A DNA stretch of 64,000 nucleotides from a virus, in IMG/VR virus record IMGVR_UViG_3300047160_002226, positions 52,150 to 116,149 of that record, one strand, 5' to 3'. The notes under the pieces were generated by a model. That model ran no database searches and was not told the DNA's origin. It was given only the letters and a program-made list of their open reading frames with translations. Every line of letters begins with the position of its first letter. Positions within the stretch are counted from its first letter, which is position 1. Made by a program: the position numbers and the translations under genes. Shown here one piece after another: positions 1-47,427 of the stretch.

Positions 1-501
1 GACCTCTTCAACGGTGCAATCGGCGGCTCTGGCGCCTTCGACCGCAAGGTGCCTGATGGCATCTCGTTCACGGAGCACAAGCTCTCGTTCATCGACACCA
101 TCGTTGAGATGTCGAACGAGATCTTCCGTGTAACGCAGCGTGCGCACGCCAACTGGCTTGTCACTGGAATGCAGGGCGCGTCGATCATCGAAACGCTTCC
201 CACATTCAAGGCTGAGCCTGTTCCTGCTGGCGTCACGGGTCCTGTCCGTATCGGCGTCCTCAACGGTCGCTGGGCGGTCTACAAGGATCCGCAGATGGCC
301 GTCGAGCGGTTCCTCGTCGGTTACAAGGGCGGAACGTTCCTTGACGCGGGCTACGTCTATGCCCCGTTCATCCCGCTCTACGCAACGCCTACGGTCCTGC
401 TTGACGACTTCCTCGGTCGTAAGGGCCTGGCAACGCGCTTCGGCAAGAAGTTCATCAACGGTCGTTACTACTCAAAGGGCACGATCATCACGAGCGCGTA
501 A
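1..501 (+). CDS. Major capsid protein, T4 gp23-like (C-terminal part; 5' truncated by window)
   Basis: VGYKG...DAGYVYAPFIPL...KGLATRFG...RYY matches the gp23-family C-terminus; frame is open from position 1. Confidence 0.9.
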   Translation, partial: DLFNGAIGGSGAFDRKVPDGISFTEHKLSFIDTIVEMSNEIFRVTQRAHANWLVTGMQGASIIETLPTFKAEPVPAGVTGPVRIGVLNGRWAVYKDPQMAVERFLVGYKGGTFLDAGYVYAPFIPLYATPTVLLDDFLGRKGLATRFGKKFINGRYYSKGTIITSA

Positions 502-546
502 AGCAGCGTGAAGAAGTCTCAGCAGTAGTAGTGGGTCTAGGTGGGA

Positions 547-586
547 ACACCCAAGGGATCGTCAAGGTCCCTTGGGTGTCTCTCTG
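547..586 (+). terminator. Intrinsic terminator-like hairpin after capsid gene
   Basis: ACACCCAAGGGA (547-558) pairs perfectly with TCCCTTGGGTGT (568-579), followed by a pyrimidine run. Confidence 0.65.
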
Positions 587-589
587 TAC

Positions 590-1141
590 ATGGGAAATCG
601 GCTAGAGCGCTACTTCTCGAATCTCCCTGAGCGCGGCATGAAGCTGAATAAGCTTCTTATCGCTGGGAAGACGTTGTTGGATGACGAGATCTGGCTCTTG
701 GTCAAGGACTTTGAGTGCGAGCTAAGCGAAGTCTTCGTCAACCAAGAGACTATCCTTGAGAGAATAGGCTATAGGACGTTCTATTACTCTCAAAGTGATA
801 CATGGCTCAATGCAGATGACAGAACTGCTCTCATGGAGTTCATCGCTGACAAGGAGAAGGATTGGATCGGTTGTGCTGTAACTGGCTCATGTGACAAGTT
901 CGATAGACTTTTTACAGAGTCCGTTCTTGGTAGAGCCCACAACGGCTACTTCGTGCGTCACGTCATCGTTACTCTTGCACGAGCTGTTGTACATCCAGAG
1001 AGCTTCGACTATCTCAGAGCCCAACCATCTCTTGTAAAGCACGTCAAGCGAGTCGAATACTACCGTCTTCCTTGTGAGGAGATAGCGCATAGGTGGCTCC
1101 AGGGCCAGACCCTCGATCCAAGGCGCCTCTGCTGGAGATAG
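590..1141 (+). CDS. Hypothetical protein
   Basis: ORF with ATG at 590 just after the hairpin; no recognisable motif. Confidence 0.6.
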   Translation: MGNRLERYFSNLPERGMKLNKLLIAGKTLLDDEIWLLVKDFECELSEVFVNQETILERIGYRTFYYSQSDTWLNADDRTALMEFIADKEKDWIGCAVTGSCDKFDRLFTESVLGRAHNGYFVRHVIVTLARAVVHPESFDYLRAQPSLVKHVKRVEYYRLPCEEIAHRWLQGQTLDPRRLCWR

Positions 1142-1144
1142 CCC

Positions 1145-2584
1145 ATGTCAAACGTGATCCACCAGATGATCCAGGGCGTGCTCTCAGAGATGGCAGCTCG
1201 CAATAAGGATAAGGACATTGCCCTCGTTGCCAAGTGGTTCCTCCACAAGCACCAGAAGGGCGAAGATGCTATGTCACAAGCGGCTTTCGCTAAGAAAGCT
1301 GGCATAGATCAAGCTTCATTCAATCGTCTAGCGAAGATTCATCGTGACGATGCGCTTGCTTCGCTCCAAGGTAAGGGTCACGATGCACAAAAGGTTAAGG
1401 CGTCGATTACTCCAAAGTACCGCACAGGGCGCCCAAGCAGCAAATCAGATGAAGAATGGCACGATATCGTCGCAGACTTTAACCAGATGCGCGAGAAGGA
1501 TCCTGACTGGTCCTACTACGCGCACGCGAAAAGGCACAGTATCAGCTCTATCGACACGCTCAAAGCAAAGGTTGGCGAGCTGCTAGGTAAGATCAAAAAA
1601 GCTGGCGAAACGAAGCGCGCCAGGGTAGCAGGGCTCGCTAAGGCTCGCGACGTTCTAGCAACGAAGCGCGCCGCCAAGAAGAAGAAGCCAGATCCAGAGG
1701 TCTCCCTACCTCCTCCTAAGCATGAGATTCCTGAGCCTATTGTCATGGCGCCGCCACCAATTAGAGCGCCTATGTCACCTCATCCTTCGTTGCCACCTAC
1801 ACCGCATGTTGCGATGCCGCCAGAAACGCACATTGGAGCTGAATACGGTCTACTTGGCTTCGCTCCAACGGTAGGCACAAGTCTCAGGGGGCAGATCCAT
1901 CCACCAATCCACATGCAGCCACCAGCTCCCGTTCCAACGGTAGGAATGGCTCATCATCCTCCGCTTGAGGTCACGCATAAGGTTGATCCTCTTGCAACAC
2001 TTGATCTTTGGACGCGCCCATATAGCCACACTACGATAGAGGAGCCACGCGCACCAGAAGATGTCATAAGAGCCCATCTCCAGCAACCAGGACCAGAGCT
2101 TCCCCACCACGAGCCTTTGCGCAAGCAGCTTGCTAAGGTAACAGGTGAGAAAGCTCCTCTCCGTGGCTGGAAGTTTCCTGAGAGAAAGCCTCGTGTCCTT
2201 CTCATCGGTGGCACATCCAGTGTGCCTGAGTGGGCAAAGGATCGTTTTGAACTCCTTGTCATCGATGGTACAGCTTCGGGCCGTATGGAATCTTCGGCTT
2301 ACAACAAGATCTTGAAGTTCCATCCAGACCTCATTCTTAGTAACAAGCAGATACGTCCGACGCTAAGAGAGCCAGTCAAGACCGCCGCCGATTACATCGA
2401 CAAGCCTTACGTTCACTCGTTCCAAGGAAGCTGGTCACAGGCGTTTCACACGGCGGCTGATCGTTACCGCCTTGAGTGGGTCACTGCAGCATCAGAAGAG
2501 AACGAAAGTCTGAAAGACGCGATTTACGATGTCATCAAGAATGGCTCGATACACGGAGCTATCTCTGATATACTTCGATCATAG
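1145..2584 (+). CDS. Multidomain protein: HTH-like segments, Lys/Pro-rich linker, C-terminal Rossmann-like (DUF2325-like) domain
   Basis: MSQAAFAKKAGIDQASFNRL (HTH-like); Pro-rich middle; RVLLIGG...PDLIL alpha/beta domain. Confidence 0.6.
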   Translation: MSNVIHQMIQGVLSEMAARNKDKDIALVAKWFLHKHQKGEDAMSQAAFAKKAGIDQASFNRLAKIHRDDALASLQGKGHDAQKVKASITPKYRTGRPSSKSDEEWHDIVADFNQMREKDPDWSYYAHAKRHSISSIDTLKAKVGELLGKIKKAGETKRARVAGLAKARDVLATKRAAKKKKPDPEVSLPPPKHEIPEPIVMAPPPIRAPMSPHPSLPPTPHVAMPPETHIGAEYGLLGFAPTVGTSLRGQIHPPIHMQPPAPVPTVGMAHHPPLEVTHKVDPLATLDLWTRPYSHTTIEEPRAPEDVIRAHLQQPGPELPHHEPLRKQLAKVTGEKAPLRGWKFPERKPRVLLIGGTSSVPEWAKDRFELLVIDGTASGRMESSAYNKILKFHPDLILSNKQIRPTLREPVKTAADYIDKPYVHSFQGSWSQAFHTAADRYRLEWVTAASEENESLKDAIYDVIKNGSIHGAISDILRS

Positions 2585-2589
2585 AACCA

Positions 2590-2677
2590 AGTTCGGAGCA
2601 ACGTCTTCTTCTATGGCTGGTGAAGAGGGGAGTTCGCTCCGAACTGTAGATAACACCTACACCCCTCTTCCCCAGCC
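2590..2677 (+). ncRNA. Candidate structured intergenic RNA (pseudoknot or two-state switch)
   Basis: 2590-2599 pairs with 2636-2645 (10/10); 2615-2630 pairs with 2662-2677 (15/16); small hairpin 2645-2661. Confidence 0.5.
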
Positions 2678-2699
2678 CTACGGAATGGAGTTTTGATTT

Positions 2700-3173
2700 G
2701 TGATGACTGAAAAGACTGATACGGCGGCTGAACCTGAGTTCATCAATGCCACCAACACGAGGCTCATGCTTTCCACTGAGGGGAGAGCGACGTTCTGGCT
2801 GGATCCTGGCAAGACGGTGAAGGGTAAGCGCTACCGCGCTTTCATTCCGATAGGGCTCAAGGAGGTCAAGAGCGAGCCTTTTCCAGCAGCTCCAAAGCCG
2901 CCTCAAGCTGCGGCTAAGCCATCTCTGGAAGCTCTTTTGGCGAAGACAGCGGCAAAGGTGGAAGCCGTAAAGCCAGTGCAAAAGACTTCGCAGCAGAAGC
3001 GTGATGGAGAGCCAACGATCTCGAAGGCTTTGCCATCTGACGATGAGATTTCAACTCCAATCGTCTCTGACCCAACTAACTTCCCGTTTGCGTGTGATGC
3101 AGAAGGTTGCACCGAACGGTTTGGCTCTGCGAGTGGCCTCAAGAACCACAAGAGGCGACACGCGAGCAGCTAA
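2700..3173 (+). CDS. Protein with C-terminal classical C2H2 zinc finger
   Basis: FACDAEGCTERFGSASGLKNHKRRH fits F-x-C-x4-C-x3-F-x5-L-x2-H-x3-H. Confidence 0.75.
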   Translation: MMTEKTDTAAEPEFINATNTRLMLSTEGRATFWLDPGKTVKGKRYRAFIPIGLKEVKSEPFPAAPKPPQAAAKPSLEALLAKTAAKVEAVKPVQKTSQQKRDGEPTISKALPSDDEISTPIVSDPTNFPFACDAEGCTERFGSASGLKNHKRRHASS

Positions 3174-3185
3174 GGAAGCGTAGCG

Positions 3186-3914
3186 TTGTCACTCCAGTAC
3201 GAGGATGTAAGGAACTATGTGCGCCTCCGTCTCGGTTCTGGCTTCGTCCGAATCGAGCTGGAGGATAAGCACATTGACCTCGCTACCGACGAGGCGGTGA
3301 AGGTCTATGGGCGCTTCATCCCGCTCCTGCGCTTCAAGAAGATCCAACTTGTAGATGCCGATGAACCTTCGACTGATAACCCGACTGGTCGGGCCTATCC
3401 ACTCGATTCAGATATCACTGGCATCTACAAGATGGACTTCGTCTTCCGCCAGACCTCTCTGGCGGTAGTCGAAGACATCTTCCATCGCCGTTACTATGAG
3501 CCTATCCATGATATGGACTCGTATGCACGGTATCTTCACTACATAGATATGCTCAAGCGGGTTCTTTCAATTGAACCTGATTGGAGCTTCGACCGTACTG
3601 ATCCGCATAACCCAAAGGTATGGATCTGGGCACCTCGCCAGGCTCAGACTATCCTCGCTTGTGCTGTTTGTTACGTGAAACGTGGATTGCACCAGATACA
3701 ACCACTGCATGAGGACTGGATCGAGCGATACTCTCTGATGCAGTGCAAGGAAACACTGGCTCGTCCTCGTAGTAAGTGGCAGAACATCCCAGCTCCATCA
3801 GGTGGTCAACAGCTCGACGGCCAGATGCTCCTCTCAGAGTCGAAAGAGGAGAAGGCCGAACTCATGGCAGAGATCAAGTCGTGGCAAACGACTCTCCCGC
3901 CGATCTGGGGGTAA
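3186..3914 (+). CDS. Neck/head completion protein, T4 gp13-like
   Basis: YVRLRLG..VRIELEDKHID.A.DEA N-terminus and ARPRSKWQNIPAPSGGQQLDG..LLSE.KEE C-terminus typical of gp13. Confidence 0.85.
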   Translation: MSLQYEDVRNYVRLRLGSGFVRIELEDKHIDLATDEAVKVYGRFIPLLRFKKIQLVDADEPSTDNPTGRAYPLDSDITGIYKMDFVFRQTSLAVVEDIFHRRYYEPIHDMDSYARYLHYIDMLKRVLSIEPDWSFDRTDPHNPKVWIWAPRQAQTILACAVCYVKRGLHQIQPLHEDWIERYSLMQCKETLARPRSKWQNIPAPSGGQQLDGQMLLSESKEEKAELMAEIKSWQTTLPPIWG

Positions 3915-5381: not shown

Positions 5382-6224
5382 GTGGTCTTCGACGGAACGT
5401 GGTCAAATGACCCGACAATGCCTGGCGTACGCGCTGATCGGTATCTACCGAACACGCCAGATCAACTGGCAGCGTACGACCAGGCTTTGTTCTGTTGGCT
5501 TCGCAGGATGACTTTTGATTATGGTTCGGAAGGCCATCCAGTTATTGAGCCTCTTCGTGTAGTGAAGGCTACTCCTGAGCGGGCATTCGCTGAGCTTGCT
5601 TACAAGGAGAAGCTAGAGGACTACGAGACAAAGCAGGATCAACTACCTCTTCCATTGTGCTCATTTGTTCGCACGGATCTAACTCCAGATAAGTCGCGTT
5701 TCAGAGTTAGCAAGTTCCATGCGTCGTATACGAATCCGCCGAACATGCTTTATCCTCGTGCGTCTACAAAGGATGAGATTTACAGGGGATGCTATCCCCA
5801 GCCTTACAACCTCACATATCAGCTTGACTTTTGGGCTAGATACGAAGCCACAATTGACCAGATACGAGTGTGGCTAGCTCTTGCAGTTCGGTATCTGACT
5901 TATTTCTATCTGCCTGTGAACTTCTCTTCACTCCCAGGATTCGGTCGGTTCTTTCAGAACCAGAATGTGTATGTGACGTTTAGTGGTTTGCAAGACGCTT
6001 CTGACCTGGAACCTGGAGCAGAGCAGCGTATCGAGCGGGTGACATCGACTCTTGACGTTCAGGGCTGGTTCTTCTTCCCAGAAGAAACGCAGAAGACGGT
6101 TCTCGACGGAATTGTGGATGTCTCCATTACTACCGAGGTTGGTGTCGATCTCGATACGGTAGACCCTGCAACGCTTATCACAGAGCGCGTCGAGGTGAAG
6201 GCAGACGTAGCAGAAGGCAAATGA
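5382..6224 (+). CDS. Tail terminator/sheath stabiliser, T4 gp15-like
   Basis: ATPERAFA, LPLPLCSFVR, YPQPYNLTYQLDFWAR motifs; upstream of sheath. Confidence 0.7.
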   Translation: MVFDGTWSNDPTMPGVRADRYLPNTPDQLAAYDQALFCWLRRMTFDYGSEGHPVIEPLRVVKATPERAFAELAYKEKLEDYETKQDQLPLPLCSFVRTDLTPDKSRFRVSKFHASYTNPPNMLYPRASTKDEIYRGCYPQPYNLTYQLDFWARYEATIDQIRVWLALAVRYLTYFYLPVNFSSLPGFGRFFQNQNVYVTFSGLQDASDLEPGAEQRIERVTSTLDVQGWFFFPEETQKTVLDGIVDVSITTEVGVDLDTVDPATLITERVEVKADVAEGK

Positions 6225-47059: not shown

Positions 47060-47427
47060 TGGACATGCTAGATGCCCTTGCGTTCCAAGAGGGAGAAGAG
47101 CCTATCGTCACCGTTTACAAGGTTATTCTCTCTAAGCATGTAGCGCTTCTCGAACTTCTTGTAGCCAAGGGCATCATCACCCAGGATGAGACTGATATAC
47201 TAGTCAAGAGAGAGCAACATTGGCTAGCTCATTACGACCAGCTCGATGCTAGTCGGCATGATGAGCTACTTCGGCGCAAGACACCAGAAGGTGAGGAAGC
47301 AAGAGTACAGGACGCTTTCAAGTACGCTAACGCAGGAGGCGGATTCGACCCAGAGCGCTTCGCAGCGAGGTATGCTGAGCTTGGCCGTCTCGTGGAAGAG
47401 AAGAAAGAGGATGGAGAAACAGGATGA
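47059..47427 (+). CDS. Hypothetical protein
   Basis: TGATG coupling. Confidence 0.55.
   Translation: MDMLDALAFQEGEEPIVTVYKVILSKHVALLELLVAKGIITQDETDILVKREQHWLAHYDQLDASRHDELLRRKTPEGEEARVQDAFKYANAGGGFDPERFAARYAELGRLVEEKKEDGETG

What the first reader, a model, noticed from the sequence alone, without database searches (positions are those of the whole stretch)
2590..2677. Densely paired intergenic RNA: H-type pseudoknot or two-state switch upstream of a zinc-finger gene
Seen: P1 AGTTCGGAGC (2590-2599) pairs with GCTCCGAACT (2636-2645). P2 GGCTGGTGAAGAGGGG (2615-2630) pairs with CCCCTCTTCCCCAGCC (2662-2677). The order P1a-P2a-P1b-P2b is pseudoknot topology, and hairpin TGTAG/CTACA (2645-2661) fills the gap between P1b and P2b. 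TCTTCTTC (2604-2611) can alternatively pair with the GAAGAGGG of P2a, giving a competing long hairpin. Most of the 115-nt spacer is paired, there is no U-tract, and the GGAG RBS lies just downstream. I do not recognise a known family. Inference: a novel cis-regulatory RNA or ncRNA, perhaps bound by the downstream C2H2 protein.
Basis: partly seen in the sequence, partly recalled or inferred. Interest (0 to 1): 0.7.

Follow-up and report, generated by a model that had tools for sequence, protein, structure and literature searches.

The report
Orphan folded RNA spacer, soil phage
A 90-base gap between two genes of an uncultured soil T4-like phage can fold into a very stable branched or knotted RNA. 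Nothing like it turned up in any collection I searched, so its role is untested; most likely it stabilises or processes the message ahead of the neck genes.

Summary
P1 is 10/10 Watson-Crick. P2 is 15/16. Two small hairpins fill the P2 loop. The 63-nt core (2615-2677) folds at -35.8 kcal/mol (z -7.5), and P1's complementarity has p about 0.001.

Standard folding gives a nested three-way junction (P2 closing H1 and H2), not a pseudoknot. P1 competes with H1. It yields a long 5' hairpin in the nascent RNA, or an H-type pseudoknot whose estimated energy is within error of the nested fold. The fold type is therefore undecided.

The element is not a terminator (no U-tract), matches no Rfam family and is unique in its genome. 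The only relatives (about 58% identity in the gp13-like neck protein) lack it: they have a 16-48-nt spacer or overlapping genes. It lies at the right edge of a hypervariable cassette between gp23 and a C2H2/neck operon, just after a candidate extended -10 promoter. The downstream start site is predicted to be accessible.

Covariation cannot be tested, because independent soil metagenomes carry identical sequence.

Best reading: a lineage-specific cis-acting mRNA stability or processing structure. A protein-sensing switch remains possible.

Another reader of this scan noted the same stretch as "bistable"; no look-alike was found on other DNA.

The parts
1145..2584 (+). Upstream 479-aa ORF with TAG stop at 2582-2584. 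It is an ORFan and the last gene of the variable cassette between gp23 and the neck genes.
   Evidence: ORF list. No Pfam family. Only itself found among 5.8 billion proteins. No similarity to the relatives' upstream genes.
2546..2574 (+). Candidate sigma-70-type promoter with an extended -10: TCGATA, 17-nt spacer, TG-A-TATACT. The inferred start near 2581 would make the whole element a 5' leader.
   Evidence: Consensus scan. TGATATACT occurs only here and at 47193, which is 45 nt before a gene start. Relative L004 has TTTAAA-16-TG-C-TATACT in its 48-nt spacer before the orthologous gene; that is the only TGNTATACT in about 28 kb of relatives' DNA. Not shown experimentally.
2590..2599 (+). P1a: 5' strand that pairs 10/10 with 2636-2645.
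   Evidence: p = 0.0013 by flank shuffling.
2604..2611 (+). Pyrimidine tract TCTTCTTC. It pairs with 2622-2629 in the nascent-RNA hairpin.
   Evidence: Fold of 2585-2645 and 2590-2645.
2615..2630 (+). P2a: 5' arm of the 16-bp closing stem.
   Evidence: Pair probability at least 0.97 in all contexts.
2631..2645 (+). H1 hairpin AGTTCG-CTC-CGAACT. Its loop and 3' arm (2636-2645) are also P1b.
   Evidence: Probability 0.94.
2646..2660 (+). H2 hairpin GTAG-ATAACAC-CTAC.
   Evidence: Probability 0.99.
2662..2677 (+). P2b: 3' arm of the closing stem.
2687..2690 (+). GGAG Shine-Dalgarno of the C2H2 gene.
   Evidence: Sequence. GGAG also precedes the orthologues in L002 and L004. Opening energy of the start region is 6.0 kcal/mol, rank 114 of 129 genes, so it is accessible.
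2700..3173 (+). C2H2-type zinc-finger gene (GTG 2700 or ATG 2703). It is the first gene of the neck block, followed by the gp13-like gene at 3186-3914.
   Evidence: ORF list. zf-C2H2 E = 0.0054, below the Pfam cut-off. The CxxxxC...HxxxH end is conserved in relatives. The gp13-like gene matches phrog_211 head-tail adaptor Ad2.

Best explanation
This is a lineage-specific, cis-acting structured segment of the + strand mRNA. It lies between the last cargo gene of a hypervariable cassette and the C2H2/neck operon of a distant T4-like soil phage.

Its robust part is a 63-nt three-way junction with almost no unpaired junction bases (P2 closing H1 and H2). A 10-nt upstream strand (P1a) can take over the 3' arm of H1. 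As a result the nascent RNA first forms a long 5' hairpin (2590-2645). The finished RNA then settles into the three-way junction and/or a P1+P2 pseudoknot.

It does not terminate transcription and does not hide the ribosome-binding site. I infer that it acts as a compact, nuclease-resistant domain. It could be a 5' leader cap for a transcript started at the TGATATACT promoter. It could be an intercistronic 3' barrier or processing site for read-through head-gene transcripts. It could be both. Either way it would set the relative stability and expression of head-side and neck-side messages.

Shown: the pairings, their statistical excess, robustness to context, absence of a U-tract, and an accessible start site.
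Inferred: transcription, promoter use, and any effect on stability.
For: - Helices are real and non-random.
- The core forms with probability at least 0.94 in contexts of 126 to 701 nt.
- All flanking genes are on the + strand, so this strand is the transcribed one.
- Other spacers of the same genome also carry strong GC-rich hairpins. This spacer is fifth of 35 by z-score and about 20th among non-overlapping 100-nt windows genome-wide.
- No terminator-like site is present.
- The start region of the downstream gene is among the most open in the genome: 6.0 against a median of 8.7 kcal/mol.
- A promoter-like extended -10 sits just upstream, and also at the orthologous place in L004.
- Identical sequence in contigs from independent soil metagenomes shows it is not an assembly artefact.
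- Stable stem-loops that protect or partition phage and bacterial polycistronic mRNAs are established biology. T4 post-transcriptional control is reviewed in PMC3014915.
Against: - There is no conservation. The only relatives have 16 nt, 48 nt (unstructured, z -0.7) or overlapping genes at this junction.
- No RNA data exist for it.
- All 35 pairs are Watson-Crick and the minus strand folds equally well (-36.4, z -5.7). A DNA-level origin is therefore equally compatible.
- A plain stabiliser would not need the extra P1 complementarity (p = 0.0013).
- The promoter rests on a consensus match that such scans also give by chance.
Confidence: 0.4

Rival explanations
1. Neutral palindromic DNA. The nested perfect inverted repeats arose by template switching or recombination at the junction of a swapped gene cassette, and have no selected RNA function.
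For: - The element lies exactly at the right edge of a hypervariable interval. gp23 is about 90% identical in relatives, but the ORFs between gp23 and the C2H2 gene are unrelated.
- The upstream gene is an ORFan.
- All pairs are Watson-Crick with no G-U, and both strands fold alike.
- The element is absent from all relatives and unique in the genome.
Against: - Four separate helices plus a 10/10 alternative pairing in 88 nt is more order than one duplication or inversion event explains.
- The sequence is identical in runs filed under different studies, 2019 and 2025. This may only reflect a clonal population.
Confidence: 0.25
2. A genuine regulatory switch or H-type pseudoknot. A trans factor (the downstream C2H2 protein, the upstream putative HTH protein, or a ligand) selects between the P1-containing and H1-containing folds to control the neck operon, in the manner of T4 gp32 on its leader pseudoknot.
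For: - Both mutually exclusive folds are individually significant.
- P1 has p = 0.0013.
- The pseudoknot energy estimate is within error of the nested fold.
- The nested-only refolding barrier is 27.8 kcal/mol. The easy route from the nascent hairpin therefore keeps P1 and yields the pseudoknot (the route is my inference).
- Precedent: the Zn(II) protein gp32 binds a pseudoknot 67 nt upstream of its own start codon (PMC3014915).
Against: - The start region is predicted open, and the helix linking P1a to it is no better than chance. No output for the switch is therefore evident.
- C2H2 orthologues have no such leader.
- No riboswitch or ribozyme family matches.
- There is no unpaired junction or conserved core that could bind a ligand.
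Confidence: 0.12
3. A stand-alone small RNA gene. The TGATATACT promoter would drive a stable RNA of about 100-120 nt whose body is the three-way junction.
For: A promoter-like site lies about 15 nt before the fold, and the structure is very stable.
Against: - No terminator or U-tract ends it.
- It runs straight into an RBS and ORF.
- There are no homologues.
Confidence: 0.08
4. DNA-level protein-binding sites. The palindromes AGTTCG-N3-CGAACT and TGTAG-N7-CTACA, plus the extra AGTTCG half-site at 2590, would act as operators downstream of the candidate promoter.
For: - The palindromes are perfect and symmetric on both strands.
Against: - 16-bp arms enclosing two smaller palindromes is RNA-junction geometry, not typical operator geometry.
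- Six-base half-sites are expected about 57 times in this genome by chance.
- No repeat of the sites occurs elsewhere.
Confidence: 0.07
5. An unconventional transcription terminator or attenuator ending the head-gene transcript.
For: - It sits at the end of a gene block.
- Other spacers in this genome hold hairpin-plus-U-tract terminators.
Against: - No T-run lies within 13 nt of P2 or after the 5' hairpin.
- The scan does not call it.
- The loop is branched, not simple.
Confidence: 0.03

Closest known systems
T4/T2/RB69 gene 32 mRNA leader pseudoknot (autogenous translational operator; PMC3014915, PMC535899)
   Same: A T4-type phage, a folded element in the leader some tens of nucleotides before the start codon, possible H-type topology, and a downstream gene that encodes a zinc protein.
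   Different: - The gene 32 knot is small and is followed by an unstructured A+U-rich tract with UUAA(A) repeats that overlaps the RBS.
- It is conserved among T-even phages, and its binding is demonstrated.
- Here the fold is larger, may not be knotted, lacks those repeats, is not conserved, and precedes an unrelated C2H2 protein.
Intercistronic and 5'-terminal mRNA stabiliser stem-loops (for example REP hairpins in the malEFG operon and the ompA 5' UTR; from my own knowledge, not checked here)
   Same: A very stable GC-rich structure between cistrons or at a 5' end, with no U-tract and the RBS left free.
   Different: Those are simple hairpins, often repeated or conserved. This one is a unique branched element with an alternative 10-bp pairing.
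PeSL promoter/stem-loop cassettes of T4-like phages (PMC2839356, PMC4122927)
   Same: An intergenic stem-loop combined with a sigma-70-like promoter at the border of variable gene cassettes in a T4-type genome.
   Different: PeSLs are repeated, alignable motifs with the stem-loop just upstream of the promoter. Here the copy is single and the fold lies downstream of the candidate promoter.
Rho-independent terminators of the same phage (for example genome 16492-16531 and 107569-107609)
   Same: Long perfect GC-rich inverted repeats in spacers.
   Different: Those have small loops and an immediate U-run. This one has a 31-nt branched interior and no U-run.
RNase III processing sites of T7-type phages (from my own knowledge, not checked here)
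   Same: Intercistronic location. P2 (16 bp) stacked on H1 (6 bp) would give about 22 bp of helix.
   Different: There is no evidence of cleavage, the host and its RNase III are unknown, and the typical internal-loop architecture is absent.

Membership tests
Any Rfam 15 family (riboswitches, ribozymes, phage RNAs) | Covariance-model score at or above the family's gathering threshold | tested here: not met
   The best hits are miRNA-precursor models at 21.3 and 18.5 bits against gathering scores of 83 and 60, which means generic hairpin likeness only.
Intrinsic (Rho-independent) terminator | GC-rich hairpin | tested here: met
   P2 is 15/16 bp and GC-rich.
Intrinsic (Rho-independent) terminator | U-tract within a few bases of the stem's 3' end | tested here: not met
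   The sequence after 2677 is CCTACGGAATGGAG; the first T-run starts at 2691. No terminator-like site was called.
H-type pseudoknot (structural class) | Two helices in crossing order 1a-2a-1b-2b | tested here: met
   P1 is 10/10 and P2 is 15/16 at the stated coordinates.
H-type pseudoknot (structural class) | The knotted fold is more stable than the nested alternatives | tested here: inconclusive
   Estimates are -38.5 to -43.5 against -37.2 for 2590-2677, and -41.4 to -50.5 against -46.9 for the whole spacer. The penalty terms are crude, and no pseudoknot-aware program was available.
H-type pseudoknot (structural class) | Both helices supported by covariation or probing | not testable with these tools
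   No homologous sequences exist in the collections. Metagenome contigs are identical.
T4 gene 32-type autoregulatory leader | Unstructured A+U-rich tract with UUAA(A) repeats between the knot and the RBS (PMC3014915) | tested here: not met
   2678-2699 reads CTACGGAATGGAGTTTTGATTT, with no UUAA repeats.
T4 gene 32-type autoregulatory leader | The downstream gene product binds the leader | not testable with these tools
   No RNA-protein tool was available. The downstream protein is a C2H2-like protein, not gp32.
PeSL cassette | Repeated, alignable copies across the genome | tested here: not met
   Single copy by repeats, BLAST and covariance model.
PeSL cassette | Stem-loop immediately upstream of the promoter (PMC4122927) | tested here: not met
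   The candidate -10 at 2569-2574 precedes the fold at 2590-2677.
PeSL cassette | Location at borders of variable gene cassettes | tested here: met
   Conserved gp23, then unrelated ORFs, then the C2H2 gene, in four phages.
MITE / REP-like mobile or repeated palindrome | Multiple copies in the genome or in host genomes | tested here: not met
   No second copy in the genome. No exact arms or interior in viral or prokaryote collections.

The most novel reading that the evidence does not exclude
The element is a new protein-responsive RNA switch. The nascent 5' hairpin converts to a P1+P2 pseudoknot or to the three-way junction. A phage nucleic-acid-binding protein (the adjacent C2H2 protein or the upstream 479-aa protein) fixes one form to time or dose expression of the neck genes. 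That would be a second, unrelated example of gp32-style autogenous control in a T4-like phage.
Probability: 0.08. Interest if true: 0.6.

Novelty: new member of a known kind. Interest (0 to 1): 0.28.

Why it matters
If functional, it would show that distant T4-like soil phages place bespoke, very stable RNA domains at the seam between swapped cargo cassettes and the conserved neck module. That would be one way to keep the dosing of structural genes insulated from whatever gene lands upstream. The perfect three-way junction with a built-in competing strand would also be a compact natural bistable RNA of possible use in RNA design. As it stands it is a single, unconserved instance without expression data. 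Its value is as a candidate for a simple reporter and probing experiment, not as a discovery.

Tried and rejected
Searches for relatives or other copies:
- Homologous spacers. Loci were sought with the gp13-like, C2H2, 479-aa and gp23 proteins in viral contigs and metagenome contigs and by protein search. The nearest relatives are about 55-61% identical in the gp13-like protein and lack the spacer.
Contigs of P0002-P0023 could not be fetched.
- The phage GenBank collection gave no match.
- Exact pieces of the element were absent from viral contigs and genome contigs.
- A single-sequence covariance model searched over 555 kb of window plus relatives found only itself.

Population variation:
- 24 soil-metagenome runs hold the phage.
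- Four runs were laid. Contigs from two of them (X2, X3) cover the element with 0 differences. There is therefore nothing to test covariation on.
- No RNA holder was listed.

Ideas rejected:
- Start-site sequestration or translational coupling by the outer helix. It is no better than shuffled flanks and the start region is open.
- Stop-codon readthrough stimulated by the knot. In frame, only 11 codons follow the TAG before a TGA at 2618-2620.
- Coding in the spacer. The 55-aa ORF at 2529-2696 is unsupported, and the C2H2 N-terminus aligns with its relatives without any extension.
- tRNA-like origin.
- Compositional island.
- A shared upstream motif or late-promoter word. None rose above background, and the CGTCGTAGG enrichment is a coding-strand artefact.

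Full report
**Context**

The window is bases 52150-116149 of a 116-kb IMG/VR virus record. The start of the window encodes:
- the C-terminus of a T4-type major capsid protein (Gp23, PF07068, E 6e-28);
- two ORFs without family (189 and 479 aa);
- a 157-aa protein ending in a C2H2-like finger (zf-C2H2, E 0.0054, below the Pfam cut-off);
- a gp13-like head-tail adaptor (phrog_211);
- further on, a gp15-like sheath stabiliser.

The finding occupies the 115-nt spacer between the TAG of the 479-aa ORF (2582-2584) and the GTG/ATG of the C2H2 gene (2700/2703). About 95% of the genome is coding, 112 of 130 crude gene calls are on the + strand, and all three stop codons are used. The spacer is therefore genuinely non-coding, and the + strand is the sense strand.

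**Observation**

- P1 (2590-2599 with 2636-2645) is a perfect 10-mer complement.
- P2 (2615-2630 with 2662-2677) is 15 of 16, with a T2621/C2671 mismatch.
- TCTTCTTC (2604-2611) can pair with GAAGAGGG (2622-2629).

Two corrections apply.
- T2645 cannot serve both P1b and the TGTAG/CTACA hairpin, so H2 has 4 bp.
- 2631-2645 is itself a hairpin (H1: AGTTCG-CTC-CGAACT). P1 therefore has a local competitor, and a fully nested fold exists.

**Statistics**

| Region | Energy (kcal/mol) | z |
|---|---|---|
| Whole spacer, + strand | -46.9 | -4.0 |
| Whole spacer, minus strand | -42.5 | -2.8 |
| 63-nt core, + strand | -35.8 | -7.5 |
| 5' hairpin 2590-2645 | -27.8 | -4.6 |
| 63-nt core, minus strand | -36.4 | -5.7 |

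- Shuffling the flanks gives a perfect flank-to-core complement of 10 nt or more in 26 of 20,000 trials.
- Arms of 16 nt with at most 1 mismatch and a loop of at most 60 nt occur at four places in 116 kb. Two of these are classical terminators.
- Genome-wide, the region ranks about 20th among non-overlapping 100-nt windows. It is fifth of 35 spacers.
- The long outer helix in the MFE (2588-2611 with 2679-2700) is not meaningful. It gains -11.1 kcal/mol, against -11.3 +/- 3.1 for shuffled flanks. Its probability swings from 0 to 0.9 with context.

**Which fold**

In a nested model the core three-way junction (P2 closing H1 and H2, with only A2661 unpaired at the junction) has pair probabilities of at least 0.94 in contexts from 126 to 701 nt.

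RNA truncated at 2645 or 2661, as during transcription, instead forms the long hairpin containing P1 and the TCTTCTTC/GAAGAGGG helix. The nested-only refolding barrier to the junction is 27.8 kcal/mol.

The apical loop of that hairpin exposes GGCTGG, the partner of the 3' end of P2b. From this I infer that P2b can invade without opening P1.

My energy estimates for that knot are stacking energies plus penalties of 4-13 kcal/mol.
- For 2590-2677: -38.5 to -43.5, against -37.2 for the nested fold.
- For the whole spacer: -41.4 to -50.5, against -46.9.

The two forms are therefore indistinguishable with these tools. Rough geometry (loops of 15, 5 and 16 nt) does not forbid the knot.

**What it is not**

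- No Rfam family comes near threshold.
- There is no T-run after either P2 or the 5' hairpin, and the terminator scan does not call the site. Several other spacers of this phage do carry hairpin-plus-U-run terminators.
- It is not repeated in the genome. Exact pieces are absent from the viral and prokaryote collections. It is therefore neither a PeSL-type repeated cassette (PMC4122927) nor a MITE/REP element.
- It does not hide the start site. The opening energy of -16..+6 around the start is 6.0 kcal/mol, rank 114 of 129 genes, against a median of 8.7.
- Readthrough of the TAG would add only 11 residues.

**Relatives**

The gp13-like protein has about 22 relatives, all at 49-61% identity. Three contigs include the upstream side. 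tblastn shows the same order in each: gp23 (about 90% identical), then unrelated ORFs spanning 1.2-3.9 kb, then the C2H2 gene, then gp13-like and gp14-like.

The 479-aa ORF has no homologue at all. At the junction with the C2H2 gene the relatives have:
- 16 nt in L002;
- 48 unstructured nt in L004 (-5.8 kcal/mol, z -0.7);
- overlapping genes in L008.

The element is thus specific to this phage and lies at the right seam of a hypervariable cassette.

The phage is present in 24 soil-metagenome runs from 21 studies. Contigs from two of them cover the element with no difference. This proves the sequence is real but offers no variation. Covariation cannot be tested.

**Candidate promoter**

The scan flags TCGATA-17-TATACT with an upstream TG at 2546-2574.
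- TGATATACT occurs only twice in the window. The other copy is 45 nt before a gene start.
- TGCTATACT lies just before another structured spacer in the first half of the genome, at genome coordinate 5776.
- In L004 the only TGNTATACT in the locus lies inside the 48-nt spacer before the orthologous C2H2 gene, as TTTAAA-16-TG-C-TATACT.

This is modest support for a promoter that would start transcription near 2581 and make the whole fold a 5' leader. No general upstream motif emerged from the genome.

**Interpretation**

I favour a cis-acting mRNA structure (0.40). It would be a compact, nuclease-resistant domain at the head/neck seam that caps a promoter-proximal 5' end and/or blocks 3' decay of read-through head transcripts, while leaving the ribosome-binding site free.

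Rivals:
- neutral palindromic DNA created at a recombination seam (0.25; all 35 pairs are Watson-Crick and both strands fold alike);
- a protein-responsive switch or pseudoknot on the gp32 model (0.12; PMC3014915);
- a small RNA gene (0.08);
- DNA operators (0.07);
- an odd terminator (0.03).

**Verdict**

Its interpretation is partly supported: the element is novel in the sense of unmatched, and it is plausibly bistable or knotted. Neither the knot, nor regulation, nor binding by the C2H2 protein is shown, and the lack of any conserved counterpart weakens the case. Another reader of this scan independently called the same stretch "bistable". No look-alike exists on other DNA in the scan.

Noticed in passing
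window 1-2700; L002, L004, L008: The gp23 C-terminus is about 90% identical in the relatives. The C2H2, gp13-like and gp14-like proteins are only about 37-59% identical. The interval between gp23 and the C2H2 gene carries unrelated ORFs in each phage (1.2-3.9 kb). This is a hypervariable cargo slot inside the structural module.
   Followed up: partly
window 1145-2584: The 479-aa ORF, with a long Pro/His-rich middle, has no homologue in the 5.8-billion-protein set and no Pfam family.
   Followed up: partly
window 3344-3359 and 3420-3435: A 16-nt inverted repeat with one mismatch and a 60-nt loop lies inside the gp13-like coding sequence. It is one of only four such repeats in the genome.
   Followed up: no
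window 47193-47201; G000 5776-5784; L004 4352-4360: TG-N-TATACT words all lie on the + strand at or near gene boundaries. The one at genome coordinate 5776 is followed by another strongly folded spacer that has a hairpin plus U-run.
   Followed up: partly
window 2650-2656: The H2 loop ATAACAC contains UAAC, the loop word of the T4/RB69 gene 43 translational operator (PMC3014915). This is probably chance.
   Followed up: no
window 550-576: A perfect 11-bp GC-rich hairpin (CCCAAGGGATC...GGTCCCTTGGG) lies directly after the gp23 stop and overlaps the predicted TTG start of the next ORF. That ORF has the least accessible start region in the genome, 25.3 kcal/mol.
   Followed up: no
window 3086-3173: The C-x4-C-x12-H-x3-H finger at the C-terminus of the 157-aa protein is conserved in all relatives, although the rest of the protein diverges strongly.
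   Followed up: partly
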